DNA from: Escherichia coli
GTDB lineage: Bacteria; Pseudomonadota; Gammaproteobacteria; Enterobacterales; Enterobacteriaceae
Assembly: GCF_022846255.1 (NCBI RefSeq)
Contig: NZ_AP025682.1
Length of the DNA stretch: 64,000 nucleotides
Strand: one strand, 5' to 3'
The position numbers were made by a program, and so were the translations under genes. This document shows positions 4,346 to 23,373 of this stretch, piece by piece. The notes under the pieces were generated by a model, which saw only the letters and a program-made list of their open reading frames with translations, searched no databases and was not told the DNA's origin. Positions within the stretch are counted from its first letter, which is position 1; each line of letters opens with the position of its first letter.

Positions 4346-4347
4346 GA

Positions 4348-7206
4348 TTAACCCTCCGCTCCGGTGATAACAGCAATTACCTGAATGTAGGGTTCTTTTT
4401 CAGTCGTCATGGTGTCCTCAATCCATTCAATATAGCTGTCAAAATTGTGTTCTATTTCGCGTTGTCTCTGCTCTTTACGGCTCTGCTTAACTGACAATTG
4501 CTGTTTGTTATCGGCAAAATCCAGCTCAAGTTGGCTCAACTGCCGCCCACGCAAAACGTCCAGCTTTTGCAGATGCTCATTCAGTTGCTGGTTAATGTGC
4601 GTTTCAAACGCATTCCGATCATGGATGAATACCTCCCGGGCATGAGCAATAGCCGCTTCCAGTAAATCCTGCTGGCGCTGGTGATTACGATCTTTACCGC
4701 CGCTGTTAGTCAGCTTGTTACTCAACTGCGGATGACGTTGTAAAAACTCAGCAAATGGCTGACTGCCGATTAGCGATTCACGGTTAAAGCTCACCACTAT
4801 CCACGGGTTAACCATCGGATGTGATTTACGGTTCGGGAATAACCCGGAAAGAATGAAGTGATCTTCATCGGGTTCAAGCAAGTATGGCAGACGGATAACC
4901 GGTGCCTGATGACGACCAAAAGCCGAAGAGATTTTATCGTCCAGCCACTGCACTACCGGGTTGATTTGCCAGAGATACTGCACATCGGGCCAGGCATGTT
5001 GCTCACCGCGAGCGCGTGCAATCGCGTCGGTGATGACGGTTTTATCCTGACTTAAATAGAGCTGCCAGTTCTCCGGCGCGATTTCAGGCGGTAGCTGGTT
5101 GAAGCGGCGGCGTAACTCCTCCGGTGCCACCAGCGACAAGGTATTATCAGGCAAGGTTTCATACTGGATAGTTTGACCACTGGCTTTCAGGTAACCCAAT
5201 GCTCTTTCACAGTACGCCTGTTCGCTGGCAAACAAGCTGGTGTCTGTTTCGGTAACCATTGAGGCATCGCTGGAAACCGCACTGCATATTTCGCCAAACA
5301 GATCATGTTCGGCGCTTTCCGAGACGTTGCTGTTCAGCAGTTGATCAAACAGGCTGGCACCATCATCCTGCATCATGAACTCTGCAACCTGCTCTTCTTC
5401 CTCTTCCTGGGTAAATTTGCCGGTAAACTCCGAACTGTCCCCAATGTTCTTCTGCGCCTGTTCGTCTTTGTTGATCAACACTTCCAGTACGCGCATATCG
5501 CCATTGATCTGTGGTTCGCTGGCCTCGGTAAGCAGATAGCGGATTTGAGGCTGATGTTTTTGCCCATAGCGGTCAATACGCCCGTTACGTTGCTGGAATA
5601 CCATCAACGACCACGGAATATCAAAGTGAATCATTTTGTGGCTAAGGTGATGCAAGTTGATCCCTTCAGATGCCACATCCGAACAAACCAGAAGACGCAA
5701 CGGAGACTGCGTTTTACCAAAGGCTTCTACGGTTTCCATCAACACCGTATCGCCCTGATCGCCGCGCAGCGTGGCGATCTGGTCATCTTTCAATTTCAGA
5801 TCCGCTCGCAGTTGCTGTTCGAGGAACTCCAGCGTTTTAATGCTTTCGGTGAAGATCACCAGGCGATCTTCCGTGTTATTGGCTTTCCAGGCGAGGTCTT
5901 TTCGGATGGTGTCGAGCAGCAACTGGTATTTGCTAAACTGGCTGGCATCAATGTTATTCAGCGCCAACAGCAATGACTCCAGTTCGTTGATCTGGCTCTG
6001 GCTATTATGATCTTTACGGCTCTCAAGACGCTTCAGACGATTCGCCACTACGCTGGCACACGCCATCGGGCTGGAAAATAGCGCTTTTTCGAGGGTTATC
6101 TTGAACAGACGACCTTTGTTAGACTGGGCCTGTTCATCGTCATCATCACGGAACTGACTCTCAACCAGGCGACGGTATGCTTCTTCTTCGGCACCGGATG
6201 CCAGGCGAGTCAGTTTGACAATATTGCGCTCGGGGAACTCGCCAGACATCTGATCTTTCACGTCTTTTTTGAAGCGACGGACAACCAGATTTTTATCGGC
6301 AAAGTCGGCGTATTCATACTCTTTCGGGTTGGCGATCGCCGTCGGGTCAAGCATGTTCATCAGGCTGGCAAAACTTTCAGCTTTACCATCATGCGGCGTT
6401 GCTGAAAGCATAATCAGCGTATCGCTGCGCCCGGCGAGCAGCTTTGCCAGTTTACTGCGTAACGAACTGGTTCCACGTTCTGCGACGTTATGGGCCTCAT
6501 CAATGACAATAATATCCCACCAGGCATTTTCCAGATGGTGACGATATTCAATGTCTTGTTTCAGCGTATCGATGGAGATAATGGTCTTGTCAAAATAGTG
6601 AAACGGGTTGTGGTTGGTAGGGATGCGGTTACGCACCTTTTGTAAACCAGCAGAATCCAGGCGGGTCAATGGGATCGCAAAACGGCTCCAGAACTCCTTC
6701 TGGAATTGTGTCAGCATCGATTTAACCGCCAGAACCAGAATACGTTTTCCGCGCCCACGACGGATCAGTTCCGAAACCAGAATACCGGCTTCCAGCGTTT
6801 TACCCAGACCGACAGCGTCGGCAATGAGTATCCGCTGGCGCGGCTGTGCCAGCGCCATCCGCGTAGGGTCGAGCTGAAACGGCATGGAATCCATCGCCGC
6901 CAGATGACCAAAATGGACTTTACTGTCTGTCGGTACGCGTTGGCGTAACTGACTTTCGATATACAACTGCGCCGCCTGATAATTGGCGGATTCATCTTCC
7001 ACCAAATGCGTTTTTGCGGGATCCAGGATCTCTACTTTTTGTTCCAGTTTGGTCAGAAATAACCCTTCTTTACCGCGCACAAGCTCTGAAATACCATCGC
7101 AGGTCAGCAAATACCCACCATCACCACTGTCATCCGCCCGGCGAATACGCCATTCGGCATCACGAATAACCACCCGCATACCAGGTGCATAATTTTGCTT
7201 ATTCAT
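4348..7206 (-). CDS. SNF2/Rad54-family helicase-like ATPase (BrxHII/DrmD-like)
   Basis: 952-aa ORF; Walker A (ADAVGLGKT), DEAH box (VIDEAH), C-terminal helicase lobe motifs; tightly coupled to downstream methyltransferase. Confidence 0.8.
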   Translation of the reverse strand: MNKQNYAPGMRVVIRDAEWRIRRADDSGDGGYLLTCDGISELVRGKEGLFLTKLEQKVEILDPAKTHLVEDESANYQAAQLYIESQLRQRVPTDSKVHFGHLAAMDSMPFQLDPTRMALAQPRQRILIADAVGLGKTLEAGILVSELIRRGRGKRILVLAVKSMLTQFQKEFWSRFAIPLTRLDSAGLQKVRNRIPTNHNPFHYFDKTIISIDTLKQDIEYRHHLENAWWDIIVIDEAHNVAERGTSSLRSKLAKLLAGRSDTLIMLSATPHDGKAESFASLMNMLDPTAIANPKEYEYADFADKNLVVRRFKKDVKDQMSGEFPERNIVKLTRLASGAEEEAYRRLVESQFRDDDDEQAQSNKGRLFKITLEKALFSSPMACASVVANRLKRLESRKDHNSQSQINELESLLLALNNIDASQFSKYQLLLDTIRKDLAWKANNTEDRLVIFTESIKTLEFLEQQLRADLKLKDDQIATLRGDQGDTVLMETVEAFGKTQSPLRLLVCSDVASEGINLHHLSHKMIHFDIPWSLMVFQQRNGRIDRYGQKHQPQIRYLLTEASEPQINGDMRVLEVLINKDEQAQKNIGDSSEFTGKFTQEEEEEQVAEFMMQDDGASLFDQLLNSNVSESAEHDLFGEICSAVSSDASMVTETDTSLFASEQAYCERALGYLKASGQTIQYETLPDNTLSLVAPEELRRRFNQLPPEIAPENWQLYLSQDKTVITDAIARARGEQHAWPDVQYLWQINPVVQWLDDKISSAFGRHQAPVIRLPYLLEPDEDHFILSGLFPNRKSHPMVNPWIVVSFNRESLIGSQPFAEFLQRHPQLSNKLTNSGGKDRNHQRQQDLLEAAIAHAREVFIHDRNAFETHINQQLNEHLQKLDVLRGRQLSQLELDFADNKQQLSVKQSRKEQRQREIEHNFDSYIEWIEDTMTTEKEPYIQVIAVITGAEG

Positions 7207-7429: not shown

Positions 7430-10400
7430 TTATCCAGCGATAATATAACTCCTAAGGTCATTACCCGGGGCAACAGCTCGCGCTCGCGTGTTTGCCAGCA
7501 GTTCAACTTGCTGCGGTACTCGCAGGGAAAAATCAAAGAAGGTATCTTCAATACAGCGCCAGTAGCTAAGCCCCATGTCGAGCAGGACATAATGCTGACT
7601 GCCATCGCTGAAGGTGACTGTCAGTTCTCGTCCATGCTCCGTACTCTGGTTATCCCCCGTTAACCAGCTAATTGCTCCCGGCCACGCTGGCCCCAGATAT
7701 CCTTCTTCAAGTAAAGTGGTCACAACCTGCTGACGATCTTCCTCATTAAGCCACGCGTTATAGAGAGCGTCGTGTTGGCGAGAGTTGTAATCCAATTTTT
7801 TGACGCAAACAGTGAGGCTGGCGCGTTCCGCCATTCCCTGTCCAACCAGCTCGGTTAAGATTTCACCTAACAAACGCGCCGTGAATGGGCTATTAAGATA
7901 ACGATCGCTGTACTCAACATGCGTTATCTCTTTGTGGCGGGTAAATGCCTGCTTCCAGCCAGCGTGCTGTTGCGTGACTAACGACCAGAAACGCGAACCA
8001 AAACCTTCCAGCGGCCCGTCCAGTTGCTCGCAGAGGTTGATGCGCACCGCCCCGGTGGGTAAGGCGGGCAGTAAATCTTCTGCACTTAAGGTCTGACCCG
8101 AGAAGGTTTTTCCGGACGTTCCTTTAAGTGTCACTACTGGTGAGGACGCACTTTGTCCCCATAATTCACCAGGTGCAACGGTAGCGCTGTCGTCTGCGGC
8201 CCACTGTTGGCTTTGCCCTTCGCGAGTCACCTGCGCAAGCCAGCGTCCCTTTCCTTGCATGAGTTGCGCAGTGGCAATGGATTTCACTTGTAAGCGTCCT
8301 CCCGGCATCGCCGCCAACGCGGAAAGCTGATGTCTGGAGCTATCTGTTAAGTTTGCCAACGGCGTGGCCACCAGCAACTCAACATGCCCACCGGAGGAGG
8401 CAAACTGGAGCAACTCTTTAAATAATGGCCATTGGGCAAAATCCCACTGTTCCTGCGGCCCCGCAAGAACCAGCGAGCAGGAGTCATAAATCTCGCTGTT
8501 CAGGCATTGCGCAATACGTAAACTCAGCGGGTTAGTTTCAACCCGGCTACCATCGCCGAAGTACTGATATTCTGGCGCGAGGTTAAGTCGCTGCAACCGT
8601 ACATTGGTAAGCAGGGTTAATGCATGGTGACGATCTAATCTGTTGACATAATGCTGACTGTCGTAGCTGAGCAAGCAGTGGTGACAGAATTTATCGCAAC
8701 TGCAATCGAGCAATTTTCTGGCGTAATTAAAGACATCAGCCCAATGGTCGATCAATTGCACTGCATAACCTGCACCACCCGCATTATTGTCGTAAATGAA
8801 GATGGAATATCCGGTATAGCCATTGATATCGCGCGCTTGCTGCGTCGTCACGCCCAGCTCAGTATTTTCGATACCCAATTTATGCGCTAACCCTTCACGC
8901 AAAGCGACCGCAAGGGATCGCGCGGCAACCTCATCACGGATCAACAGGCCATTATCATCATTGAGTTGCAGCTCAACCATATCTGTACGACTGCTATACC
9001 CCAACCAAAGATCTTTATGCACATGACCGTGGCACAATTTATTGCTCCCCTGACGATCGTTACTGCCCCCTCGCAACAGGTAATGCGTATTTTCCCTCTC
9101 TGGGTTCTTAAGATTTTCAGGGGTACGCTGGGGTTGATTTTGAGATTCTGCCCGACCACATGAGAGGCAAATTGCGTAGCCGTGCCCAAATTCCCCTTCA
9201 CTGAAGTGGAACAATTCCCCACTATGGCTAAAACGGTAACGTCCTAACCCAGCATCGGGTAAAGAAACCCACACCGAAGACGGTACAAGAACACGTGGAT
9301 CTTTCCAGGGAAGTTGTGCAGGCATGGATACATCATTATGCGCCTGATAACGGATATCTGTCGCAAAACCAACAGGCTGTAAATAACGCTTCACATCAAG
9401 TTGCTGTATATCCGCTTTGCAGTGACTACATTCGACAGGACGGGTAGTACTGGTTGCCCCCGCACCACATTTACGACAATGCCAGAACCACGGAATATGA
9501 TGATCGCCTGACAGCTCCTGCCCGCTGGCAAGTACCTTGCCAAGCATAATGCCCGAGGAACGATATACTTTTCCGCCCAATACCACATCTGCACCTGGAG
9601 CATACTCGCGTAATGCTGTAGGCAAATCACGGCTGGGCAATTTTTCAATACGACGAGAAAAGCTTTCTCCCCCTTCATTAGGGTCAGCCTGAGTAGCTTT
9701 TATTGCGCGACGTTTTTCCAGCTCATCTGCCGTCAGATAATTGAAATTGACGACGCCAACCGGGAAACCATGCCCCGGCAGGAACGCTTCACTAATGAGT
9801 TTAGAAAACAGATATGCACCGCGATAATCACGAAGCTGATAAGCGATGGCTTTACCTGCTGGCGTTTCTTCCCACGCGCTGTTATCCGCCTTCAACGCTT
9901 CGATATTTTCCAACAGTATCGCAAGTTGGCTTCTCCAGCGGATATCAACCTGCTGCATCATTGCTTGTGTGCGGGTCAAGAGCTGGGTTGCCGTCAATGA
10001 CATCAGGACGGTTCCCTGAGTAAGGCGTTTAAGTTTATCCGCCAGCTGATCGGCCTGGTTATTTAACCAATGGAGAAAACGAAGACACTGGCTCTCATCA
10101 CCTTCAAAGAACCATTTGCAACTCAGTTTTGTCGCATCAGGAACTTCAGCTCGTAAAAACAGACCTAAAACCAGGGCATTAACATGTCGTTGAACAATAC
10201 TGCTGCTCCCAAAACGAACCCGTGGCGCACTGGCAGTAGTGTTGAACGCCCAGAGGGGGGCTTTGAATACCTCCATTCCATGCGCCGTGTTTTTACATAA
10301 CGTAATGGCAGCAGATGCACTCTCTCCACGTCGACCCGCGCGGCCTGCACGCTGCAAATAATTTGCCGGAGCTGGAGGAACGTTGTTCATTGCCACCAAA

Positions 10401-13400
10401 CTCATACCACCAATGTCCACCCCCATCTCCATGGTCGTGGAGCAGTTCAGCACATTAACTTTGCCTGACTTAAATTGTTTTTCATTAAACTGGTTCTGCT
10501 CAGGCGTTCTCTGCGCAGAGTGTTCCTCCAGACGATACCAGCTATCTTTCAGGGCCAGTCGGTCGCTGCGAGTAGACCATAATCCTTCCTCGCGGGCATG
10601 TTGAATCAGCGCATTACTTTCCAGCCACTCCAGACGTTCTTCTCGGGCGATTTCTCCACCACCAGACAAACGCCAGTGACGTACAGGAAGCTCAGGCATT
10701 TCAATCAACACTGCTTTTTCAGGTGCAATTTCTTTGCTACCCGGCAAATACGGAGAGTATCCCAGTAACGTGACGTCTAACGCACGTCGAGTATAGGGGC
10801 AACGCCACACTTGCTTTGGACTGTAAAATTCAGCTTGTTGTTTAATATCCAGCTGATAACCCGACTCAAACTGACGTAAGCAGGGTCGAATTGCATCCCA
10901 GACCTCAATCATTAAGTGGTTAACTAACGATTTCCAGTGAGCCTGCTCAGGTTGTATTGCCGGAAAGACTGCAATTAATAGCTTAATGACCCGGTTATAA
11001 TGGCGATCGCGTATTTGTGGCCAAAGTTGATCACGTTTCTGCCCTTTGTTTTTTTTATCTGGACCCTGGAGCATTTTTACCGGGAAACGAGCCCCCATCC
11101 AGCGAGGGTATTGCTCGTTTTCGTAAAAAACGGCACTGTTTTCACGTATAAAGAAATCAAGAGTAATCTTCAATAAATTACGCCATTCCGCTAATTGCTT
11201 ATCGGGATCGGGTAATAATGTCTTCCAGTCCTGCGGGCAGGTTGTAACTTTATCAATAAATGGATAGTGAATGGCTACCAGACCCAGACTTTCGAGGGTC
11301 CAGGCATTTTTAGGGCGGCGACCAAACTCACTGTATAAACAAAAATCTGCAAACTGTTGTTTAGTAAGATCAAGCCCAGACAATTCTTTAAAACTGCCTC
11401 TCATTCTATCGGCAAGGTCCACACTGCCAACCAGCTGTTCAGACAGTGTTTGCCATGACATGGTTTTCTTCTGCTGATTGCCAGAGTTAGCCTGGAGTAT
11501 TTGCATCGCTTCAGCATGATCCGGGCTTAAGGAACTCACCATCGGCTCGATAATTTTAAGTGCCTGAATGTCCGCCGGGCTAAGCTCTTCATTAGCAACC
11601 ATCGCTTTTTTCAGCGCGTCAATAGAGTTTTTTAAAGGAAGGATAGAAAACTGGGTAATAAAACTCTCTAACAATGCGCAGTGTGCCGGGCTGAGCTTTG
11701 CTGATGGCTCATTAATATTGGCCAACTCCTGGTAACAAAGAGCTCGCAACGTCGCTTTATCGGCATCCTGCTGTAAGCGGGCAGAAATGCGGGCAGTGCC
11801 CTGACGTGAATCCGTAAAGGTGAGCAGACGTCGACCATTAAACGGTCCTAACTGCTCTTCTCTTGTCTGCGGTAATGGTGAAAACTCCAGCAGAGTAGGA
11901 ATAATTTCATTTAAAAAAAAGGGCGCGCCAAGTCGAAGCGGACGGAATAAAGGATTATTTTTTCGTTGGGTGTCACCACAGCAAACACAAGCAAAGGAAT
12001 TATTACGTCCCTCACCTCGAGATTCCGGTCTTAACAGGTTTATTTCATAGTGCTTTTGCGCTTCACTATCAATTTTCCCCGCCGTCGTTTCTTCCAGAGA
12101 AATGATATATTTTTCACCATCGATCGCAATCAGACGATCAAATTGAGAGTTATTGTCTAATTCGTCGTTGTCTTCATCTTCAGAATAAACATCTACATCA
12201 AGAGCAAATTCATCCACTTCGGCAGCGGCGGGTTGCGCTACCAACCAGTTCGTTCCATCACCGCGCACCTCCTCTTTGGCAGACAAATAAGCTGAACCAC
12301 ACCCGGAGCAACGTAAAACTTCAAATACCGGCGCACCACAGTCACAATATTGGCGCTGCTCAAACCATACCTGACCAAATGGCCAGTCACTCTGATTTAA
12401 TTCATGCGCTTTATGTGAGCATTGTTTGTTTGAACATGCCCATAGACCCGCCAGTGTTCTGATAAACCCATGCATACGTAATGGCGTAAAAGCCAGTTCA
12501 CCTTCTCGCGATCTCGCCATTAGGTCGAGGAGTTGCAGTAACTCACGGTGATTAATATCTGGCCAGGTTCTTCTGGCAACATTGAGCAACTCACTCAAAC
12601 GTACTGCCTGCCGTCCGGGATGAGTTAACGCCTGACGCAATTGCTGGGCCACACGGTAATGACAAAGCTGTTGGTAAAGATCCTGAGGGCTCAAAGATTT
12701 AAGAGAAGTTAAAGATGTGGGATATTCATGACGAATCAGCGACTCCGATACCCGCGGTATTTGTCGATAGCCGCGAACCACTTTGACATCACGTTCTGTA
12801 ACGCCCGCAAGATCAGCGACAAATTTAGCAAGCTCCTTATTACCTTCAGGAGAGTCTTCACCAATAGTGGCAGAGGTCGCGATAATCTGCACAGGTTTAT
12901 CTGTGCCAGGTCCAACATTGAAAGCCTGCATAACACGACGTAAAAGCAGCGCTAACTCAGCAGCCTGAGAACCAATATAACTATGGGCTTCATCCAGGAC
13001 GATATACTTTAACATCCCCTGAGACTTTTCGATGATTGGGGCATCTTTACGACGAATCAGCATATATTCCAGCATGGTGGTATTCGTCACCATGATGGAA
13101 GGTGGTGCTTCGTAAATGGCTTCCCGACTCAAAGCTTGTTCAGGTACTTTCAACTGATCTTCCTGAACTTCGTATTTGGTATGCCGGGTTTCGCCATTAT
13201 ATAGCGCGAAGCGTATTTTCCCCTTAAATCCGCGCGTCCATTCGCGAAGCCGCTCCTGTTGGCTGTTAATTAATGCATTTAACGGATACAAGAAAATAGC
13301 TTGTGTCCCTGTTAGTGACTGACGGGTCGATTTTTGCTGACGAATAAGATCTTCCAGAACCGGTACCATAAAGCATTCTGTTTTCCCGGATCCCGTACCG

Positions 13401-13753
13401 CTGCTCACTAACAAGGATTTTTTGTCTTCCAGAATCGTTCGCCACGCCGTAAGTTGATGACGAAATGGCACCGGCGCTTTGCTCAATGCATCAACCAGCG
13501 GGCTGGAAATTAGCTTGTCCCGCAAATCCTCCATTGTTTCATCCGCAGGCATCCAGCCGAACGTGCTTTCGAATACCGGGTCTGCAAGCAGTGACCCCTC
13601 CTGACCGGGAGGCTGGAAATATTGTGATTCCAGATAATGAGTCAACGACTTGCTCCGCAATGCCAACTGACTTACCACCGACCTCACCGCGCGCTGATGA
13701 AGCTGATTTAGAAGTGGCGCATAATGCAGTTGCTGAACGTCCATCAATGACAT
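7430..13753 (-). CDS. druE: Giant DEAH-box helicase with multiple Cys4 zinc-ribbon clusters (DUF1998-like); DruE-like
   Basis: 2107-aa ORF; Walker A SSGTGSGKTE, DEAH box (VLDEAH), helicase motif VI QRAGRAGRRG about 1000 residues downstream; CxxC...CxxC clusters (CSNKQC...CDCG...CSGCG; HCRKCG...CSHCK; CLSCG; CSCDKFCHHC). Size and domain content match the hallmark Druantia helicase; DrmA/DrmB-type fusion not excluded. Confidence 0.55.
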   Translation of the reverse strand: MSLMDVQQLHYAPLLNQLHQRAVRSVVSQLALRSKSLTHYLESQYFQPPGQEGSLLADPVFESTFGWMPADETMEDLRDKLISSPLVDALSKAPVPFRHQLTAWRTILEDKKSLLVSSGTGSGKTECFMVPVLEDLIRQQKSTRQSLTGTQAIFLYPLNALINSQQERLREWTRGFKGKIRFALYNGETRHTKYEVQEDQLKVPEQALSREAIYEAPPSIMVTNTTMLEYMLIRRKDAPIIEKSQGMLKYIVLDEAHSYIGSQAAELALLLRRVMQAFNVGPGTDKPVQIIATSATIGEDSPEGNKELAKFVADLAGVTERDVKVVRGYRQIPRVSESLIRHEYPTSLTSLKSLSPQDLYQQLCHYRVAQQLRQALTHPGRQAVRLSELLNVARRTWPDINHRELLQLLDLMARSREGELAFTPLRMHGFIRTLAGLWACSNKQCSHKAHELNQSDWPFGQVWFEQRQYCDCGAPVFEVLRCSGCGSAYLSAKEEVRGDGTNWLVAQPAAAEVDEFALDVDVYSEDEDNDELDNNSQFDRLIAIDGEKYIISLEETTAGKIDSEAQKHYEINLLRPESRGEGRNNSFACVCCGDTQRKNNPLFRPLRLGAPFFLNEIIPTLLEFSPLPQTREEQLGPFNGRRLLTFTDSRQGTARISARLQQDADKATLRALCYQELANINEPSAKLSPAHCALLESFITQFSILPLKNSIDALKKAMVANEELSPADIQALKIIEPMVSSLSPDHAEAMQILQANSGNQQKKTMSWQTLSEQLVGSVDLADRMRGSFKELSGLDLTKQQFADFCLYSEFGRRPKNAWTLESLGLVAIHYPFIDKVTTCPQDWKTLLPDPDKQLAEWRNLLKITLDFFIRENSAVFYENEQYPRWMGARFPVKMLQGPDKKNKGQKRDQLWPQIRDRHYNRVIKLLIAVFPAIQPEQAHWKSLVNHLMIEVWDAIRPCLRQFESGYQLDIKQQAEFYSPKQVWRCPYTRRALDVTLLGYSPYLPGSKEIAPEKAVLIEMPELPVRHWRLSGGGEIAREERLEWLESNALIQHAREEGLWSTRSDRLALKDSWYRLEEHSAQRTPEQNQFNEKQFKSGKVNVLNCSTTMEMGVDIGGMSLVAMNNVPPAPANYLQRAGRAGRRGESASAAITLCKNTAHGMEVFKAPLWAFNTTASAPRVRFGSSSIVQRHVNALVLGLFLRAEVPDATKLSCKWFFEGDESQCLRFLHWLNNQADQLADKLKRLTQGTVLMSLTATQLLTRTQAMMQQVDIRWRSQLAILLENIEALKADNSAWEETPAGKAIAYQLRDYRGAYLFSKLISEAFLPGHGFPVGVVNFNYLTADELEKRRAIKATQADPNEGGESFSRRIEKLPSRDLPTALREYAPGADVVLGGKVYRSSGIMLGKVLASGQELSGDHHIPWFWHCRKCGAGATSTTRPVECSHCKADIQQLDVKRYLQPVGFATDIRYQAHNDVSMPAQLPWKDPRVLVPSSVWVSLPDAGLGRYRFSHSGELFHFSEGEFGHGYAICLSCGRAESQNQPQRTPENLKNPERENTHYLLRGGSNDRQGSNKLCHGHVHKDLWLGYSSRTDMVELQLNDDNGLLIRDEVAARSLAVALREGLAHKLGIENTELGVTTQQARDINGYTGYSIFIYDNNAGGAGYAVQLIDHWADVFNYARKLLDCSCDKFCHHCLLSYDSQHYVNRLDRHHALTLLTNVRLQRLNLAPEYQYFGDGSRVETNPLSLRIAQCLNSEIYDSCSLVLAGPQEQWDFAQWPLFKELLQFASSGGHVELLVATPLANLTDSSRHQLSALAAMPGGRLQVKSIATAQLMQGKGRWLAQVTREGQSQQWAADDSATVAPGELWGQSASSPVVTLKGTSGKTFSGQTLSAEDLLPALPTGAVRINLCEQLDGPLEGFGSRFWSLVTQQHAGWKQAFTRHKEITHVEYSDRYLNSPFTARLLGEILTELVGQGMAERASLTVCVKKLDYNSRQHDALYNAWLNEEDRQQVVTTLLEEGYLGPAWPGAISWLTGDNQSTEHGRELTVTFSDGSQHYVLLDMGLSYWRCIEDTFFDFSLRVPQQVELLANTRARAVAPGNDLRSYIIAG

Positions 13754-16700
13754 ACTCCTGCTTGTTCAAAATAATATTGATAGATTACCCCTAATTGCTG
13801 CGGGGCTTGCTGATAGTGGAATTCAAAAAGCGCAGACAGTTGATGTATCAAGTTATTATCTTTTTGGGTTAACAGCGCTGCGACTAACATCAAATTAAAA
13901 CGTTTTTCAAGCCGTGAGTGATATTTATCTTCAATCCAAAGCTTATTAAAAACAGATTTTAACTCTGGAGTAATAGCACTAGACCAAAGTTCTTTAGGGA
14001 AGATACTGATACGCCCAAAGCTGTCGGGGTTCCTTAATAGCATCTGTTTAGCTTCATTAAACTGCTCACGACTAACAGTTGGCAAGACATTACAACCGGC
14101 TGGTAGGAGTTCGCCATATGTAAGTAACATATTCGCAATGGGAGCCAGACGACGATCGATATGTGCACGATGGTTCATAAAAGCAATAAAGGGTTGCAAT
14201 ATATGTAATGCTAATGTTTTATCGTTAATCTGTTTTTCCAGATAAGCCCAACACTTTTGAAAAACATCTTTCCAGATTGAAACGGGAATCCATCCCCATG
14301 AAAAGGGTAATTCTTCCTGTATATCATAAATCGTATCGCTATCACCAGAAAGACATGATGATATTAACAACTGAACAACTACGCGGTAATTACTCGAAAT
14401 ACCTCTGAACAAATCCAGATCCAGCAAGGATAAGCCATTATTCATTTTGTATTTCTTAATATACTCCGTTAATAAACAGCAATAATTTTGCAAAGGATTG
14501 TTATCTATTTCAAAAATTAGCTCATTAAAATATTTTTTTCGCTGTTCGGAATCCGCTTCGCATAGAGCATTAAGTAATAAATCATTTGTCTGTAATACAG
14601 GTAGCCCCCATTTAATTACTGGTGCAATGCGAGCTGTACCATCAAGTTTCCCCACAATTAACCATGGGCTATCCTGAACATTCAGAGCTGAAAGATCATA
14701 AGCAAATTCATCTTTTTTTAGCAACGATATGTGTAAGCCAGGATCCTTAAGAGAAATAGCATCAACAACCAGCTCGTCTATTCTATTTGCAGGAAAAACA
14801 ACAGAATTTTTTATATCAACCAGTAACCCTTGATCGTGTTCAATAAAACTACCATCGTAGCGTTTAATACTGAGTGTTGCTTTATCCTTTCCAAATCTGT
14901 CAGAGTAAAAATCAACACATAATGTACTATTGCTGTTCCATGCACATGCCAGCATAGCATTTAGCAAATTATAGTTCTCATAAAGTGAAATTTGTTTTAA
15001 TTTGTCATTGCATCCTGATAAAAGAGGAAGGTCGGCATGTAAATAACGGAATTTTTCAGCTACTGGATTTTCATCCAACAACTCGATATTAAGATATCCT
15101 CTTCCAGCACAAGATATGGTTAACAACTCAGCATCTATTCCATGCAAATGCGCTATAGATGCCACACCATCAAAATGAACAGAACCATCATGAGTTACAA
15201 ATCGGCCACCGCTAACCGGCTTAGGTAATAATAGTTTAAGATTAGAACCATCTTTCCAGGAGACCCGTAAATCAACGGTATTTTCCAGCATCTCCGATGA
15301 ATTATAATAAATAGCACACTCGTTTTGTGAATAATCGGACTTAAGTGTTACTTTTTCATTATTTGAATATTTGTCAATTCTAGTATCCGTTATACCAGAA
15401 AGCATTATGATGCCTTGCTGAGCACTCTCAGGTATAATATTAATATCGAAGTCTGTTGGTAAAACTACAACTTTACCGCTAAATAAAACCTCATCATTAA
15501 CTATTCGTCTGACTTCTATCTGTCCTTTTGGCATTTCTGATGCGACAGAATACCAGGCATTGTTACCTGAACGAATGGAACGCCAAAAAAGTTCTTTCTC
15601 CGGTACAATGCCATATTGCAGATCCTTTTTCCAACCGATCTTCGGCCAGGCTCGATGGACAGGATAATCCGATTTAACCAGTTCAACTTCTGTCGATTTA
15701 ATATAATATTCAATCGCAGAATCATAAAGTTGCTGGGTGCGAATTGTACAAACTGCACCATCATGTAAAACAACGCTAAATACTCCACTTATTTTAGTTA
15801 AGCTGCGTTCACTGTTTTTCAGCAACCTTGGGATATCAAACTCACCTTCTCCACTAATATCTAAATGGCTATTTTTCGGTAGCGAAATAAACAGAGCATT
15901 TAGCCTGGAACTCACAGACCCCATACCGACAAGTTTTAGCTGCGATTCACTCTCATTCATCGCTTCAAAAACCCAGGGGAGTTCTTCAGTAAGTTCATAA
16001 CCGCCTTTTGGAATTGTGTGGCCTAACAGAATTGGACCTTCATGAAGCGACAACGAGATTTCGGCCATTGCATCTGCACCAGAGAGCTTTTGCATCGCAA
16101 TAGGTAATAACTCGACCCGCCAATCTTGCTGCTCATAACGGCTTAGCATTGCCAACCTTGCCCCGCCATTTCTCCATTTTCCTGAAATGATGAGTCGGGT
16201 CTGCTCCGGCTGAATATTGCATTCAAACAAAGAGGTTAACTGTTCTGTACGCATTATGGCCGGGAATCGGAACCGGGCATCACAATACCAACTGTCATCA
16301 ACATCGACCCAGATTCTTTCAACCTGAAGACTACTTGCACTGCGTATTTCAGAAGATTGAGAAAGTAATCGCCTTACAATCTCTGCAGCATTCGCTTCGG
16401 GGAGAACGAGTGGAAGTTGAAGATGCCAGTCTGGAGAGAGCTTACGTAATGCAGAAACGGGATCACTGCTTTGAGGTGGATGCTCACTAAGTAATCGGCA
16501 GAGAGTCTCGCAGAATTCACCGGCTATTTCATAGACCAGTTCGTTTTGCATTGTGACAGGAATCGTATCGCCTAATTCTTGTGCAATTTTAGCGGCAGGA
16601 TATTGAGATGCTTGCCCACGAAGCGCCTGATATATCCTTCTGAAATAGGTAATCAAATAACCGCTCTCATTTTCAATCATGCGGATAGGTAAACCACCTT

Positions 16701-17103
16701 CACAAGCCAGTGTATGCAGATAACCCGAAGCTTGCCCCAGGTTTCTTATCTTTCTTTTCCAGTAGCGAATGCCATCATTAACCAGCTTCTGTTGATGAAC
16801 ATACGGAACTTTCCAGTCAATAGAATCTAAAATTGTGTCCCATTTAGGGTGTCCGACCGTATGAGTCCGGCGGATAAACTCTGCGGCATATATGCTAAAT
16901 AGAACATCGCTATAGGAAATGAATATCGTTCTTGGATAACTACGGGGGGCATATGTACGCAGTAGTTCTGCCAAACTTTCGTACTCTGTATCAGTACAAC
17001 GGTAAGCATATAACGCCCGTCCATCAGCTCCGGATAATGAACGGCGACTAAAAAACATGTTAAGCCATTGCAAAAGTGGGTTAACTGGAGTTTTCACAAG
17101 CAA
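13744..17103 (-). CDS. druH: 1119-aa protein without recognisable motifs, translationally coupled to the giant helicase (DruH-like position)
   Basis: Long uninterrupted ORF; stop overlaps helicase start by 10 nt; no catalytic motif recognised by eye; position and size fit the DruH partner of type III Druantia, but the assignment is by context only. Confidence 0.45.
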   Translation of the reverse strand: MLVKTPVNPLLQWLNMFFSRRSLSGADGRALYAYRCTDTEYESLAELLRTYAPRSYPRTIFISYSDVLFSIYAAEFIRRTHTVGHPKWDTILDSIDWKVPYVHQQKLVNDGIRYWKRKIRNLGQASGYLHTLACEGGLPIRMIENESGYLITYFRRIYQALRGQASQYPAAKIAQELGDTIPVTMQNELVYEIAGEFCETLCRLLSEHPPQSSDPVSALRKLSPDWHLQLPLVLPEANAAEIVRRLLSQSSEIRSASSLQVERIWVDVDDSWYCDARFRFPAIMRTEQLTSLFECNIQPEQTRLIISGKWRNGGARLAMLSRYEQQDWRVELLPIAMQKLSGADAMAEISLSLHEGPILLGHTIPKGGYELTEELPWVFEAMNESESQLKLVGMGSVSSRLNALFISLPKNSHLDISGEGEFDIPRLLKNSERSLTKISGVFSVVLHDGAVCTIRTQQLYDSAIEYYIKSTEVELVKSDYPVHRAWPKIGWKKDLQYGIVPEKELFWRSIRSGNNAWYSVASEMPKGQIEVRRIVNDEVLFSGKVVVLPTDFDINIIPESAQQGIIMLSGITDTRIDKYSNNEKVTLKSDYSQNECAIYYNSSEMLENTVDLRVSWKDGSNLKLLLPKPVSGGRFVTHDGSVHFDGVASIAHLHGIDAELLTISCAGRGYLNIELLDENPVAEKFRYLHADLPLLSGCNDKLKQISLYENYNLLNAMLACAWNSNSTLCVDFYSDRFGKDKATLSIKRYDGSFIEHDQGLLVDIKNSVVFPANRIDELVVDAISLKDPGLHISLLKKDEFAYDLSALNVQDSPWLIVGKLDGTARIAPVIKWGLPVLQTNDLLLNALCEADSEQRKKYFNELIFEIDNNPLQNYCCLLTEYIKKYKMNNGLSLLDLDLFRGISSNYRVVVQLLISSCLSGDSDTIYDIQEELPFSWGWIPVSIWKDVFQKCWAYLEKQINDKTLALHILQPFIAFMNHRAHIDRRLAPIANMLLTYGELLPAGCNVLPTVSREQFNEAKQMLLRNPDSFGRISIFPKELWSSAITPELKSVFNKLWIEDKYHSRLEKRFNLMLVAALLTQKDNNLIHQLSALFEFHYQQAPQQLGVIYQYYFEQAGVCH

Positions 17104-17314
17104 CCTGCCTTCCTTTGATACAATTCGTAACAGGTTACTATCATCATAAAAAAGCTCAACCCGATGAACTCGCTAAAAATGAGACAAATCATTTATATCT
17201 CGAAAAAACTTGTTACAATCATGAGCGCTACACCGAACTTAACCATATAAATTATGTGTGTTTTGTTTATTTTTTAAACAATTACAACTATCCATTATTT
17301 ACACAGGTATCAAA

Positions 17315-18967
17315 ATGTTAGCGCAGCTTTTTGAGCAGTTGTTTCAATCGATAGACTCTACACTGATCACCAATATTTTCATCTGGGCTGTTATATTCGT
17401 ATTTTTATCAGCGTGGTGGTGTGACAAAAAAAATATACATAGTAAGTTTAGAGAATATGCTCCAACCTTAATGGGGGCATTAGGTATTCTGGGTACTTTC
17501 ATTGGTATTATTATTGGGTTACTCAATTTTAATACTGAAAGTATTGATACCAGCATCCCCGTATTATTAGGCGGCCTAAAAACAGCATTCATTACAAGCA
17601 TTGTAGGTATGTTTTTTGCCATTTTATTTAATGGAATGGATGCTTTCTTTTTTGCCAATAAACGAAGTGCGTTAGCAGAAAATAACCCTGAATCTGTTAC
17701 ACCTGAACATATCTATCATGAATTAAAAGAGCAGAACCAGACTCTGACTAAATTAGTCTCGGGTATTAACGGTGATAGTGAAGGTTCTCTTATTGCTCAA
17801 ATAAAATTACTACGTACTGAGATTAGCGATTCCTCGCAGGCACAATTAGCTAATCACACTCATTTCAGTAATAAGCTTTGGGAACAACTTGAACAATTTG
17901 CAGATCTAATGGCAAAAGGTGCTACAGAACAAATTATTGATGCTTTACGACAAGTCATTATTGATTTTAATGAAAATTTAACTGAACAGTTTGGTGAAAA
18001 CTTTAAAGCACTTGATGCCTCTGTAAAAAAACTTGTTGAGTGGCAGGAAAATTATAAAACGCAAGTTGAGCTGATGTCAGAACAATATCAACAAAGTGTC
18101 GAGTCTCTGGTTGAAACAAAAACTGCGGTTGCCGGGATTTGGGAAGAATGTAAAGAAATTCCTCTGGCTATGTCTGAACTGCGTGAAGTGCTTCAGGTGA
18201 ACCAACATCAAATCAGCGAACTCTCCCGCCATTTAGAAACCTTTGTCGCCATCCGCGATAAAGCTACAACCGTATTACCTGAAATACAGAACAAAATGGC
18301 TGAAGTGGGTGAACTGCTGAAATCCGGAGCTGCAAATGTTAGTGCATCTCTTGAGCAAACCAGCCAGCAAATACTTCTTAATGCAGATTCAATGCGCGTG
18401 GCCCTGGATGAAGGTACCGAAGGATTCAGACAATCGGTTACCCAAACACAACAAGCATTTGCCTCGATGGCACATGATGTCAGCAATTCCTCCGAAACTC
18501 TAACCAGCACGTTAGGTGAAACAATTACTGAAATGAAACAAAGTGGTGAAGAATTCCTGAAGTCACTAGAGTCGCACTCGAAAGAATTGCATAGAAATAT
18601 GGAACAAAATACGACTAATGTAATTGATATGTTCAGTAAGACTGGTGAAAAGATTAACCATCAACTATCCAGTAATGCCGATAATATGTTTGATTCAATC
18701 CAGACATCATTTGATAAGGCAAGTGCAGGGCTGACTTCTCAAGTCAGAGAATCAATTGAAAAATTTGCTCTATCCATCAACGAGCAGTTACATGCTTTTG
18801 AGCAAGCAACTGAACGTGAGATGAACCGTGAAATGCAATCATTAGGTAATGCTCTGCTTTCAATCAGCAAAGGTTTTGTCGGTAACTATGAAAAACTTAT
18901 TAAAGATTACCAAATAATTATGGGGCAGTTACAAGCATTAATTTCTGCTAATAAACATCGAGGGTAA
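17315..18967 (+). CDS. zorA: ZorA-like MotA/TolQ/ExbB-family membrane protein with long coiled-coil tail
   Basis: Hydrophobic N-terminal helices (LITNIFIWAVIFVFLSAWW; LMGALGILGTFIGIIIGL; FITSIVGMFFAILF) followed by ~350 aa of heptad-rich sequence. Likely start at ATG 17315 (ORF track starts at 17258); first gene of a three-gene operon. Confidence 0.7.
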   Translation: MLAQLFEQLFQSIDSTLITNIFIWAVIFVFLSAWWCDKKNIHSKFREYAPTLMGALGILGTFIGIIIGLLNFNTESIDTSIPVLLGGLKTAFITSIVGMFFAILFNGMDAFFFANKRSALAENNPESVTPEHIYHELKEQNQTLTKLVSGINGDSEGSLIAQIKLLRTEISDSSQAQLANHTHFSNKLWEQLEQFADLMAKGATEQIIDALRQVIIDFNENLTEQFGENFKALDASVKKLVEWQENYKTQVELMSEQYQQSVESLVETKTAVAGIWEECKEIPLAMSELREVLQVNQHQISELSRHLETFVAIRDKATTVLPEIQNKMAEVGELLKSGAANVSASLEQTSQQILLNADSMRVALDEGTEGFRQSVTQTQQAFASMAHDVSNSSETLTSTLGETITEMKQSGEEFLKSLESHSKELHRNMEQNTTNVIDMFSKTGEKINHQLSSNADNMFDSIQTSFDKASAGLTSQVRESIEKFALSINEQLHAFEQATEREMNREMQSLGNALLSISKGFVGNYEKLIKDYQIIMGQLQALISANKHRG

Positions 18968-18973
18968 TCGATC

Positions 18974-19681
18974 ATGGATAAGATTATAGGGAAACAATTA
19001 CCTAAAAAAGATCAAGATAATGAACACTGGGTATCCATGTCAGACCTAATGGCAGGGCTGATGATGGTTTTTATGTTCATATCTATTGCTTATATGCACT
19101 ACGTACGTATTGAAAAAGAAAAAATTAAAGAAGTTGCCGTAGCCTACGAGAATGCTCAGTTACAGCTTTATAATGCTCTGGATATTGAGTTTGCAAAGGA
19201 TTTGCAAGACTGGGATGCAGAGATCGATAAGCAGACTCTGGAGGTTCGATTTAAATCACCGGATGTTTTATTTGGCTTAGGAAGCATAGAGCTTAAACCA
19301 AAGTTTAAACTCATTCTTGACGACTTCTTTCCTCGCTACCTAAAAGTTCTTGATAATTATCAAGAACATATTACTGAAGTCCGCATTGAAGGTCACACAA
19401 GTACTGACTGGACTGGAACAACGAATCCTGATATTGCTTATTTTAATAATATGGCACTATCACAAGGTCGTACACGTGCAGTATTACAATACGTTTATGA
19501 TATAAAAAATATCGCGACACACCAACAATGGGTTAAAAGTAAATTTGCCGCAGTAGGTTATTCATCTGCACATCCCATTCTTGATAAAACCGGCAAGGAG
19601 GATCCTAATCGCTCTCGTCGTGTCACCTTCAAAGTTGTAACAAATGCCGAGTTGCAGATTAGAAAGATTATTCAGGAGTAA
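18974..19681 (+). CDS. zorB: ZorB-like MotB/OmpA-family protein (single TM plus peptidoglycan-binding domain)
   Basis: N-terminal TM helix (LMAGLMMVFMFISIAYM) and OmpA_C-like motifs (IEGHTSTD, NMALSQGRTRAVLQY, NRSRRVTFKV); 7-nt gap after zorA. Confidence 0.7.
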   Translation: MDKIIGKQLPKKDQDNEHWVSMSDLMAGLMMVFMFISIAYMHYVRIEKEKIKEVAVAYENAQLQLYNALDIEFAKDLQDWDAEIDKQTLEVRFKSPDVLFGLGSIELKPKFKLILDDFFPRYLKVLDNYQEHITEVRIEGHTSTDWTGTTNPDIAYFNNMALSQGRTRAVLQYVYDIKNIATHQQWVKSKFAAVGYSSAHPILDKTGKEDPNRSRRVTFKVVTNAELQIRKIIQE

Positions 19682-19684
19682 GAG

Positions 19685-20788
19685 ATGAAATTATCTATCG
19701 ACATTTCAGAACTTATTCAATTAGGGAAGAAAATGTTACCAGAAGGAGTCGATTTTTTTCTGGATGAATCCCCTATTGACTTTGATCCTATAGATATTGA
19801 GTTATCCACGGGTAAAGAAGTTAGTATCGAAGATCTTGACCCTGGTAGCGGGCTTATCTCTTATCATGGCCGCCAGGTTCTTTTATATATTAGGGACCAT
19901 TCAGGGCGTTATGATGCGGCTATCATCGATGGCGAAAAAGGAAAACGTTTTCATATTGCCTGGTGCAGAACTCTTGATGAAATGCGCCATAAAAATCGAT
20001 TTGAAAGGTATCATGCAACTAACCGCATAGATGGTTTATTCGAAATTGATGATGGTTCAGGTCGGAGCCAGGATGTTGATTTACGGGTATGTATGAATTG
20101 TCTGGAACGACTTAATTACAAAGGAAGTATTGATAAACAAAGGAAAAGAGAGATTTTTAAATCATTCTCATTAAATGAGTTTTTTTCAGATTATAGTACC
20201 TGTTTTCGTCATATGCCTAAGGGTATCTATGACAAAACAAATAGTGGGTATGTCGAAAACTGGAAAGATATATCAAAATCAATACGAGAAAAGGCCAAGT
20301 ATACTTGTAATGATTGTGGTGTGAATTTATCAACCGCCAAAAACTTGTGCCATGTCCATCATAAAAATGGCATCAAATATGATAATCACCATGAAAACCT
20401 TCTTGTTCTGTGTAAGGATTGCCATCGTAAACAGCCCCTCCATGAAGGTATATTCGTTACCCAAGCTGAGATGGCTATCATTCAACGTTTACGTTCCCAA
20501 CAAGGGTTATTAAAAGCCGAATCCTGGAATGAAATATATGACCTGACTGATCCATCAGTACATGGTGATATTAATATGATGCAACATAAAGGCTTTCAAC
20601 CTCCTGTTCCTGGGTTAGATCTTCAAAACTCAGAACATGAAATTATTGCAACCGTAGAAGCAGCATGGCCAGGCCTTAAAATTGCAGTTAACCTTACTCC
20701 CGCCGAAGTCGAAGGATGGAGAATATATACCGTGGGTGAGCTGGTTAAAGAAATACAAACAGGAGCCTTTACGTCAGCAACGTTGTAA
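19685..20788 (+). CDS. zorE: ZorE-like HNH endonuclease
   Basis: HNH motif CNDCG...CHVHHKNG...NHHENLLVLCKDCH; immediately follows zorB (4-nt gap); MotA/MotB/HNH trio matches Zorya type II gene content. Confidence 0.7.
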   Translation: MKLSIDISELIQLGKKMLPEGVDFFLDESPIDFDPIDIELSTGKEVSIEDLDPGSGLISYHGRQVLLYIRDHSGRYDAAIIDGEKGKRFHIAWCRTLDEMRHKNRFERYHATNRIDGLFEIDDGSGRSQDVDLRVCMNCLERLNYKGSIDKQRKREIFKSFSLNEFFSDYSTCFRHMPKGIYDKTNSGYVENWKDISKSIREKAKYTCNDCGVNLSTAKNLCHVHHKNGIKYDNHHENLLVLCKDCHRKQPLHEGIFVTQAEMAIIQRLRSQQGLLKAESWNEIYDLTDPSVHGDINMMQHKGFQPPVPGLDLQNSEHEIIATVEAAWPGLKIAVNLTPAEVEGWRIYTVGELVKEIQTGAFTSATL

Positions 20789-23263: not shown

Positions 23264-23373
23264 GGTTGATAATACCGCGCCCCTATAATCTTGCCATCTC
23301 GTGCATTGAGATGTTAAAAGCTACAAATGTTCTCCCTATTTTTCAATGTAGACATTTATAGCAATATCAAAAT

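What the first reader, a model, noticed from the sequence alone, without database searches (positions are those of the whole stretch)
7430..13753. Giant helicase with widely separated RecA lobes and at least four Cys4 clusters
Walker A/DEAH motifs are near the N-terminus, while helicase motif VI (QRAGRAGRRG) lies roughly 1000 residues later. Zinc-ribbon-like CxxC pairs occur both between the lobes and in the C-terminal 600 aa. This implies large inserted domains of unknown function inside the motor, which are candidate sensing or nuclease modules.
Basis: seen in the sequence. Interest (0 to 1): 0.5.

Follow-up and report, generated by a model that had tools for sequence, protein, structure and literature searches.

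The report
Known Druantia III helicase DruE
This giant gene is DruE, the helicase of the E. coli type III Druantia anti-phage system; a protein about 99% identical has cryo-EM structures that already explain its large insert and zinc clusters, so the finding is real but not new.

Summary
A 2107-codon ORF lies at 7430..13753 (-). Walker A is at aa 119-125, DEAH at 254-257 and motif VI (QRAGRAGR) at 1134-1141. CxxC pairs are about ten times more frequent than shuffles give.

The protein is not unknown. It matches the PADLOC DruE3 model end to end (2179 bits). Its upstream neighbour, overlapping it by one base, is DruH (2538 bits). It is 99.05% identical to the O157:H7 allele, the one solved by cryo-EM as PDB 9TU7-9TUC. 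About 10% of complete E. coli genomes carry the gene.

Four 2026 preprints describe this protein or close orthologues. The roughly 730-aa insert between the RecA lobes holds:
- a small helical domain;
- a double zinc-binding domain with a "lock" loop;
- a duplex-binding "Cap" domain carrying the strand-separation wedge;
- a four-helix dimerisation module needed for defence.

Four or five zinc sites are reported. The insert carries no nuclease. The nuclease candidates are two C-terminal PLD-like domains, and the preprints disagree on whether they cut DNA. The canonical HxKxxxxD motif is absent here.

Verdict: already known, low interest. The true start is probably M4 (13744).

The parts
7430..13744 (-). 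druE coding sequence from the probable true start (M4 of the ORF) to the stop: 2104 aa. The ORF from the first ATG runs to 13753.
   Evidence: ORF list and translation. PADLOC DruE3 PDLC00037, aa 9-2105 against profile 4-2051 of 2055, 2179 bits. PDB 9TU7 chain, 4860 bits. Start-site reasoning.
12860..13462 (-). RecA1 lobe (Pfam DEAD, aa 98-298). Walker A GTGSGKT is at aa 119-125 (13379-13399) and DEAH at aa 254-257 (12983-12994).
   Evidence: Pfam; motif positions. Motif I and motif II mutants abolish defence in the EDL933 protein.
10574..12724 (-). Insert between the RecA lobes (about aa 344-1060; these boundaries are my approximation). It contains the WH/five-helix domain, the dZBD/ZBM_L, and the DBD/'Cap' with the DD/PD embedded in it.
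   Evidence: No Pfam family here. The only solved structure matching this stretch by sequence is DruE itself. The in-silico deletion restores the Lhr register.
11978..12436 (-). Double zinc-binding domain cysteines (C440, C445, C470, C472, C482, C485, C589, C591, C592; two Zn sites). It includes the acidic 'lock' loop at aa 508-526 (12176-12232).
   Evidence: Cysteine positions. 'ZBM_L contains two zinc-binding motifs'. 'Two in the dZBD' and lock residues 505-523 in paper numbering.
11468..11713 (-). Four-helix dimerisation subdomain (DD/PD), aa 681-762 (paper numbering 678-759).
   Evidence: Deletion abolishes dimer formation and defence. It holds 9 of the 20 substitutions that separate this allele from the O157:H7 allele.
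11081..11089 (-). Strand-separation wedge R889-F890-P891 (paper numbering R886/F887/P888) in the Cap/DBD domain.
   Evidence: Residues confirmed at the +3 offset. Role from the forked-DNA cryo-EM structure.
10325..10540 (-). RecA2 lobe core (Pfam Helicase_C, aa 1072-1143), with motif VI QRAGRAGR at aa 1134-1141 (10331-10354).
   Evidence: Pfam; motif position. R1135L/R1138L (paper numbering) abolishes defence.
9017..9478 (-). Zinc modules of the OB-fold region: the C1426/C1429/C1442/C1445 ribbon, and C1529/C1532 with C1574 and His 1575/1577/1579. The ligand set of the second site is my inference.
   Evidence: Cysteine positions. 'Two in the OBZ domain'. ZBMs inserted in the OB region of all Druantia types.
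8672..8911 (-). MZB (MrfA Zn-binding, formerly DUF1998) domain, aa 1615-1694. Its zinc site is C1684-x-C1686-xxx-C1690-xx-C1693 (8675-8704).
   Evidence: Pfam PF09369, E = 7e-12. C1681/C1683/C1687/C1690 (paper numbering) mutants abolish defence, and the MZB domain is required for unwinding.
7433..8575 (-). Two C-terminal PLD-like domains (about aa 1727-2107). There is no canonical HxKxxxxD. The only HxK/R triplet is H2040-G-R2042.
   Evidence: Regex search. No Pfam PLD hit. Near-identical to residues 1722-2108 of 9TU7. Function is disputed: dispensable with no nuclease, or an active nuclease.
13744..17103 (-). druH, the partner gene of type III Druantia (1119 aa). Its stop codon overlaps the druE M4 start by one base.
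   Evidence: PADLOC DruH3 PDLC00041, 2538 bits, full length. NCBIfam NF038336 STY4851/ECs_5259 family, 970 bits against a cut-off of 150. Junction sequence.

Best explanation
The ORF is druE, the helicase of a type III-A Druantia anti-phage system (druH-druE). It sits in the conserved E. coli Zorya II - Druantia III - ARMADA II defence island.

DruE is a YprA/MrfA-like superfamily 2 DNA helicase. It loads on 3' single-stranded DNA and moves 3'-to-5'. The MrfA-like core is RecA1, RecA2, an extended winged helix, an OB fold, a connector and the MZB/DUF1998 zinc domain. This core threads the tracking strand.

The roughly 730-aa insert between the RecA lobes is structural and mechanical. It is neither a nuclease nor an independent sensor:
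- a double zinc-binding domain plus a duplex-binding 'Cap' domain cradle the incoming duplex;
- the Cap supplies the wedge (R889-F890-P891) that splits the strands;
- the zinc domain carries an acidic lock loop;
- an embedded four-helix bundle dimerises the protein, which is needed for defence.

The four to five Cys-rich zinc sites stabilise small modules lining the DNA path.

Solved or assayed on near-identical proteins: fold, DNA path, 3'-to-5' unwinding, and the requirement for motifs I, II and VI, the MZB cysteines and dimerisation. Shown here: identity, motifs, clusters and context. Inferred or unsettled: how unwinding leads to phage clearance, and whether the PLD-like tail cuts DNA.
For: - Full-length PADLOC DruE3 hit of 2179 bits, with an adjacent full-length DruH3 hit of 2538 bits.
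- Pfam DEAD, Helicase_C and MZB.
- PDB 9TU7-9TUC chain at 4860 bits over aa 3-2107. The window differs at 20 of 2107 residues (99.05% identity) from an O157:H7 RefSeq allele; the shown parts of the 9TU7 alignment carry the same substitutions.
- 55 of the 57 distinct residue positions cited in three E. coli DruE preprints are present at a constant +3 offset.
- Domain roles come from cryo-EM and mutagenesis.
- Neighbours are ZorA2/ZorB2/ZorE and ARMADA-type SNF2 and methyltransferase genes.
- The gene is present in 540 of 5426 complete E. coli genomes.
- The wide RecA-lobe spacing is shared by the DruE1 and DruE2 profiles, where RecA2 maps at about profile position 1080-1200.
Against: - The four preprints disagree on important points. 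Two E. coli studies find no nuclease activity and find the PLD domains dispensable. Another E. coli study and the orthologue the authors call PaDruE report ATP-dependent DNA cleavage by DruE.
- One study reports that dimerisation is required for defence. The PaDruE study sees the dimer as autoinhibited, and prefers 5'-overhang junctions after DruH processing.
- All mechanistic evidence comes from other alleles. Nothing was measured on this exact sequence.
- My domain boundaries inside the insert are approximate.
Confidence: 0.93

Rival explanations
1. [quoted passage not shown] The helicase delivers single-stranded DNA to an active site in the C-terminal PLD-like domains, and this site degrades phage DNA. 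DruH acts as a sensor or 3' exonuclease that licenses DruE. This rival concerns the output step of the mechanism, not the identity of the gene.
For: - An E. coli DruE preparation degrades long ssDNA and lambda DNA and nicks plasmid DNA when ATP and Mg are present. Extra ATPgammaS sites were seen in the 'active' PLD domain.
- In the orthologue called PaDruE, a D1740A pocket mutant abolishes ssDNA degradation in vitro and defence.
- Bell et al. predict the last PLD domain to be active.
- In this window the D1950-R1951-Y1952 triplet and H2040-G-R2042 are present. Their correspondence to the PaDruE pocket residues (DRY, HxR) is my inference and was not aligned.
Against: - There is no canonical HxKxxxxD motif in this sequence and no Pfam PLD hit.
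- Deleting both PLD domains leaves defence, ATPase and unwinding intact in two independent E. coli studies. No reproducible nuclease activity was found there.
- A contaminating nuclease is a classic artefact with large DNA-binding proteins.
Confidence: 0.3
2. One reading: the domains inserted between the RecA lobes are autonomous sensing or nuclease modules of unknown function.
For: - The insert is large and folded.
- It has no Pfam family and no sequence relative among solved structures other than DruE itself.
Against: - Structures with forked or 3'-tailed DNA show the insert holding the duplex, wedging the strands apart and dimerising the protein.
- No catalytic site is reported in it.
- The fragment 1-1171 (both RecA lobes plus the insert) alone has no DNA affinity or ATPase activity.
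Confidence: 0.05
3. The gene encodes a DEAH-box RNA helicase that regulates flagellar motility through fliC. This is the older annotation of Z5898 of O-island 172, and RefSeq still uses it as a product name.
For: - A 2013 study reported that an EDL933 Z5898 deletion lost flagella and fliC expression.
- RefSeq names some copies 'motility-regulating DEAH-box RNA helicase'.
Against: [quoted passage not shown]
- All biochemical substrates shown are DNA.
- The gene sits in a defence island, is coupled to druH, and confers phage resistance.
Confidence: 0.03

Closest known systems
DruE of E. coli O157:H7 EDL933, type III-A Druantia (PDB 9TU7-9TUC; preprint 10.64898/2026.05.13.724758). The E. coli DruE proteins of preprints 10.64898/2026.05.12.722862 and PMC13192584 belong here too.
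   Same: Same gene. It has the same length and collinear sequence at 99.05% identity. All helicase motifs and every cysteine are unchanged, as are the wedge, clamp and lock elements. It has the same druH partner and the same Zorya II / ARMADA II neighbours.
   Different: There are 20 amino-acid substitutions, 9 of them in the dimerisation subdomain (aa 681-745). G1971 replaces the glutamate (E1968 in paper numbering) that one study places in a trimer interface.
MrfA/YprA of Bacillus subtilis (PDB 6ZNP, 6ZNQ, 6ZNS), the founding YprA-family repair helicase
   Same: It shares the SF2 DEAH core, 3'-to-5' DNA helicase activity, and the OB-connector-MZB/DUF1998 'canopy' with a 4-Cys zinc site. Sequence match E = 1.9e-19.
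   Different: MrfA is 751 aa. It lacks the roughly 730-aa insert between the RecA lobes, the extra zinc modules, the dimerisation bundle and the PLD-like tail. About 60% of DruE's mass is additional.
ArmC of ARMADA II, and the DruE proteins of Druantia types I, II and IV (YprA-like defence helicases)
   Same: They share a lineage-specific insert after RecA1: a BrxA-like helical domain, a beta-barrel zinc module and a MarR-like domain embedded in RecA2. They also share extra zinc modules in the OB region. The DruE1, DruE2 and DruE4 profiles match at E = 1e-100 to 1e-172.
   Different: The C-terminal nuclease-like domains differ (Vsr-type in ARMADA and in Druantia I and II). The partner genes differ. 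The matches are only partial and in several pieces.
DrmA + DrmB of DISARM
   Same: It is a YprA-family helicase core plus a DUF1998 zinc domain, used in anti-phage defence.
   Different: The core and the zinc domain are split into two proteins. It is reported to unwind 5'-to-3' and to be regulated by a trigger loop. Only weak local PADLOC matches were found (E about 1e-10), confined to RecA2.

Membership tests
Druantia type III DruE (PADLOC DruE3) | Full-length match to a DruE3 profile | tested here: met
   PDLC00037: E = 0, 2179 bits, aa 9-2105 against profile positions 4-2051 of 2055.
Druantia type III DruE (PADLOC DruE3) | An adjacent, co-oriented druH gene | tested here: met
   The gene at 13744..17103 (-) matches DruH3 PDLC00041 at 2538 bits over its full length. 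It also matches NCBIfam NF038336 at 970 bits against a cut-off of 150. The druH stop and druE start overlap in TGATG.
Druantia type III DruE (PADLOC DruE3) | No type I or type II partner genes (DruA-D; DruM, DruF, DruG) in the operon | tested here: met
   The flanking genes are ArmA/ArmB-like (best matches DrmD and type IIG/DrmMI models) on one side and ZorA2/ZorB2/ZorE on the other. The hit lists show no DruA-D, DruM, DruF or DruG (only the best 25 of 32 families are listed for the ArmA-like protein).
Druantia type III DruE (PADLOC DruE3) | Confers phage resistance together with DruH | not testable with these tools
   This is shown experimentally for alleles about 99% identical, but not for this exact sequence.
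YprA/MrfA-like SF2 helicases | DEAD/DEAH RecA1 domain, Helicase_C RecA2 domain and an MZB (DUF1998) domain with a 4-Cys zinc site | tested here: met
   Pfam PF00270 (E = 6e-24), PF00271 (E = 2e-12) and PF09369 (E = 7e-12). The zinc site is C1684/C1686/C1690/C1693. MrfA chain 6ZNP matches at E = 1.9e-19.
YprA/MrfA-like SF2 helicases | OB fold and connector between RecA2 and the MZB domain | not tested
   Taken from the cryo-EM descriptions of the near-identical protein. I ran no structural comparison because the protein exceeds the 1200-aa limit of the predictor and a solved structure already exists.
Type III-A subtype (DruE with two C-terminal PLD-like domains) | C-terminal region of about 380 aa homologous to PLD1/PLD2 of characterised III-A DruE | tested here: met
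   aa 1721-2107 align to residues 1722-2108 of 9TU7 with 4 substitutions, 865 bits.
PLD-superfamily nucleases | Catalytic HxK(x)4D (HKD) motif | tested here: not met
   There is no H.K.{4}D anywhere in the protein. The only HxK/R triplet in aa 1727-2107 is H2040-G-R2042. There is no Pfam PLD hit. This agrees. Nuclease activity through a non-canonical pocket is still claimed by others.
DEAH/RHA RNA helicases ('motility-regulating DEAH-box RNA helicase') | DEAH motif plus RNA-dependent unwinding and the RHA-type C-terminal domains | tested here: not met
   DEAH is present. There are no RHA-type auxiliary domains: Pfam finds only DEAD, Helicase_C and MZB. No NCBIfam RNA-helicase model comes near its cut-off. 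RNA unwinding cannot be tested here, and the published substrates are DNA.
DISARM DrmA | Full-length match to DrmA, with separate DrmB and DrmC genes | tested here: not met
   There are only local hits, E = 1e-10 over aa 1094-1145. No DrmB or DrmC gene is adjacent.

The most novel reading that the evidence does not exclude
The C-terminal PLD-like pair, with the non-canonical D1950-R-Y and H2040-x-R2042 residues, may be a conditionally active nuclease or nucleotide-regulated module. [quoted passage not shown] That would reconcile the contradictory preprints. The locally divergent dimerisation patch might also tune allele-specific assembly. Both ideas would extend a known system rather than define a new one.
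Probability: 0.25. Interest if true: 0.35.

Novelty: already known. Interest (0 to 1): 0.1.

Why it matters
Little here is new. The gene has belonged to a named defence family since 2018. Its domain architecture was dissected computationally in 2025 (Bell et al., PMC12458937). A protein 99% identical has deposited cryo-EM structures with DNA, together with mutational tests of the helicase motifs, the MZB cysteines, the lock, the wedge, the dimerisation domain and the PLD tail.

Three points have practical value:
- The RefSeq product name 'motility-regulating DEAH-box RNA helicase' is misleading. 'Druantia type III DruE' is the better label.
- The ORF start should be M4.
- This allele is a natural variant of the studied protein. 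Its substitutions are concentrated in the dimerisation module, which could help groups trying to resolve the conflicting reports on oligomeric state and nuclease activity.

Tried and rejected
- Pfam on both halves of the protein found nothing in aa 300-1070.
- A sequence search of solved structures with the insert alone (aa 301-1070) found only DruE itself. With the tail alone (aa 1721-2107) the result was the same.
- NCBIfam has no model that reaches its cut-off for DruE.
- I considered DISARM, BREX (BrxHI/HII), Dpd (DpdJ), Cas3 and SngC because of local PADLOC hits. I rejected them as family assignments because the hits cover only the RecA lobes.
- I considered the older RNA-helicase/motility annotation and rejected it.
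- I looked for a paper linked to PDB 9WAE, a 1970-aa 'Helicase' with a weak match. None is in the library.
- I did not run AlphaFold or Foldseek. The protein is longer than the 1200-aa limit, and an experimental structure of a 99%-identical protein exists.
The allele comparison therefore rests on L001 and L002 only.


Full report
**1. The observation**

The window carries an uninterrupted ORF at 7430..13753 on the minus strand, 2107 aa from the first ATG. In ORF numbering, Walker A (GTGSGKT) is at aa 119-125. DEAH is at 254-257. Motif VI (QRAGRAGR) is at 1134-1141.

Pfam finds DEAD at aa 98-298 and Helicase_C at aa 1072-1143, with nothing between them. It also finds the MrfA Zn-binding domain (MZB, formerly DUF1998) at aa 1615-1694. 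To size the insert I removed aa 344-1074 in silico. RecA2 of the shortened protein then aligned to the Lhr helicase almost residue for residue (construct 345-429 against 5V9X 340-427). The insert is therefore about 730 aa.

The protein has 37 cysteines, and they are strongly clustered:
- C440/C445, C470/C472, C482/C485 and C589/C591/C592, inside the insert;
- C1426/C1429/C1442/C1445;
- C1529/C1532 with C1574;
- C1684/C1686/C1690/C1693.

There are six CxxC pairs. The mean in 2000 shuffles is 0.63 and the maximum is 5.

The only correction concerns the start. The second ATG (M4, window 13744) overlaps the stop codon of the upstream gene in TGATG and lies 10 nt after an AGGAG. RefSeq starts there. 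All published residue numbers fit the ORF at a constant offset of +3.

**2. What it is**

The PADLOC library gives an end-to-end match to the type III DruE model PDLC00037: E = 0, 2179 bits, aa 9-2105 against profile positions 4-2051 of 2055. The gene immediately upstream (13744..17103, minus strand) is a full-length DruH at 2538 bits. NCBIfam places that neighbour in the STY4851/ECs_5259 family at 970 bits against a cut-off of 150. The pair druH-druE defines type III Druantia.

Sequence search of the Protein Data Bank returns a 2108-residue chain at 4860 bits, present in six entries (9TU7-9TUC). A preprint identifies these entries as cryo-EM structures of DruE from E. coli O157:H7 EDL933. Against an O157:H7 RefSeq allele the window protein has 20 substitutions, which is 99.05% identity. 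In the parts of the 9TU7 alignment that were shown, the same substitutions appear. No cysteine and no helicase motif is changed.

The gene occurs in 540 of 5426 complete E. coli genomes at 95-99.8% nucleotide identity.

**3. Surroundings**

The window is a defence island. Downstream of druE lie an SNF2/BrxHII-like helicase (4348..7206, minus strand) and a large PglX/type IIG-like methyltransferase that runs off the left end of the window. In the near-identical RefSeq region these are followed by a second giant DEAD/DEAH helicase and a UvrD-family helicase. That is the gene order of ARMADA type II, armA to armD.

Upstream, on the other strand, are ZorA2, ZorB2 and ZorE of Zorya II (17258..20788). 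Further on lie an HNH protein, a PDC-S11 candidate and a type III Wadjet operon. The Zorya II - Druantia III - ARMADA II array is a described, conserved and synergistic arrangement, O-island 172 in EHEC.

**4. How it works, according to the structures of the near-identical protein**

DruE has an MrfA-like core: RecA1, RecA2, an extended winged-helix domain, an OB fold, a connector and the zinc-binding MZB domain. The protein closes topologically around the tracking strand. It unwinds 3'-tailed and forked DNA but not blunt or 5'-tailed DNA. ssDNA stimulates its ATPase.

The region between the RecA lobes has three published nomenclatures:
- WH + dZBD + DBD + DD;
- FHD + ZBM_L + Cap + PD;
- INS + Stalk.

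An earlier computational dissection described it as a BrxA-like helical domain, a beta-barrel with CxxC zinc motifs and a MarR-like domain embedded in RecA2. [quoted passage not shown]

Functionally, the zinc domain and the Cap/DBD cradle and over-twist the duplex. A Cap loop (R886/F887/P888 in paper numbering; R889/F890/P891 here) wedges the strands apart. A long acidic loop of the dZBD (505-523; here 508-526) acts as a 'lock'. The four-helix DD/PD (678-759; here 681-762) mediates dimerisation, and its deletion abolishes defence.

Zinc sites are counted as five (two in the dZBD, two in the OB region, one in the MZB domain) or four. Mutating the MZB cysteines C1681/C1683/C1687/C1690 (here 1684-1693) abolishes defence, and the MZB domain is required for unwinding. 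Mutants of motifs I, II and VI also abolish defence. All of these residues are present in the window protein.

**5. What remains unsettled**

The last 380 aa or so form two PLD-like domains. This sequence has no canonical HxKxxxxD motif and no Pfam PLD hit. The only HxK/R triplet in the tail is H2040-G-R2042.

- Two E. coli studies find that the PLD domains are dispensable and detect no nuclease activity.
- A third E. coli study reports ATP- and Mg-dependent cleavage of long DNA and calls the last domain active.
- The study of the orthologue called PaDruE reports a non-canonical pocket whose D1740A mutant loses both DNA degradation and defence. It treats the DruE dimer as autoinhibited and DruH as a 3' exonuclease that licenses DruE.

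I therefore commit to the helicase mechanism with high confidence. I treat 'helicase-nuclease' as a live rival for the output step, at about 0.3.

**6.

The inference that these are uncharacterised sensing or nuclease modules is not supported. The insert is a DNA-handling and dimerisation apparatus with a published structure. The nuclease candidates lie elsewhere, in the C-terminal tail.

**7. Older annotation**

RefSeq labels some copies 'motility-regulating DEAH-box RNA helicase'. This goes back to a 2013 study of Z5898 in O-island 172. The EDL933 Druantia study saw no motility effect when druE was deleted. All demonstrated substrates are DNA.

**8. Verdict**

The feature is an ordinary, intact allele of a known and structurally solved protein. 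Novelty: already known. Interest: low, 0.1.

Noticed in passing
window 13742-13760 (minus strand): The druH stop codon and the second ATG of the druE ORF overlap in TGATG, with an AGGAG 10 nt upstream. This suggests translational coupling, and that the real DruE start is M4 (13744) rather than the first ATG (13753).
   Followed up: yes
window 11353-11953 (DruE aa 601-800): Relative to the O157:H7 allele, 9 of the 20 amino-acid changes fall in the 82-aa dimerisation subdomain. Synonymous changes are also elevated over aa 601-800. The pattern looks like a locally divergent, possibly recombined patch rather than uniform drift.
   Followed up: partly
window 7841-7843 (DruE G1971): This allele has glycine where the studied alleles have glutamate (E1968 in paper numbering). 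One preprint places that residue in the CTD-CTD interface of a DruE trimer.
   Followed up: no
window 1-7206 (minus strand): An ARMADA type II system begins directly downstream of druE. An ArmA-like SNF2/BrxHII helicase lies at 4348-7206, and a PglX/type IIG-like methyltransferase (ArmB) runs off the left end of the window. The armC and armD genes would lie outside the window.
   Followed up: partly
window 17258-20788 (plus strand): A complete type II Zorya system (ZorA2, ZorB2, ZorE) is divergently oriented from druH. This is the published synergy partner of Druantia III.
   Followed up: partly
window 24499-32371 (minus strand): A type III Wadjet operon: JetD at 24499-25554, JetC at 25567-30003 and JetA at 30905-32371. 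The 298-aa ORF in the JetB position (30006-30902) gave no PADLOC hit at E <= 1e-10.
   Followed up: partly
window 21615-24372: Small defence-like genes lie between Zorya and Wadjet. There is an HNH-domain protein (22334-23263, plus strand) and a PDC-S11 candidate (PDDEXK family in RefSeq) at 23374-24372 (minus strand). By position, the 192-aa ORF at 21615-22193 corresponds to a gene RefSeq annotates as an HNH endonuclease, but it gave no PADLOC hit (E <= 1e-8).
   Followed up: partly
window about 35600-51500: A low-GC segment (32-37% against about 50% elsewhere). It carries a type II methyltransferase (35686-37371), a weak restriction-enzyme-like ORF (37364-39673) and eight further large ORFs (39642-44171 on the plus strand; 45757-49905 and 50612-51523 on the minus strand). 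The five of these that were searched gave no PADLOC match. It looks like a separately acquired block.
   Followed up: no
E. coli genomes, hit H19 (NZ_AP026116.1), and the plasmid hits: In strain CEC13002 druE is interrupted by an IS3-family element (IS1203). 17 of the 546 matching places are on plasmids, so the gene is sometimes inactivated and sometimes mobile.
   Followed up: no
RefSeq annotation of the homologous gene (L001 20001-26315): The product name 'motility-regulating DEAH-box RNA helicase' persists in RefSeq for some copies of druE. The annotation appears outdated in the light of the Druantia literature.
   Followed up: yes
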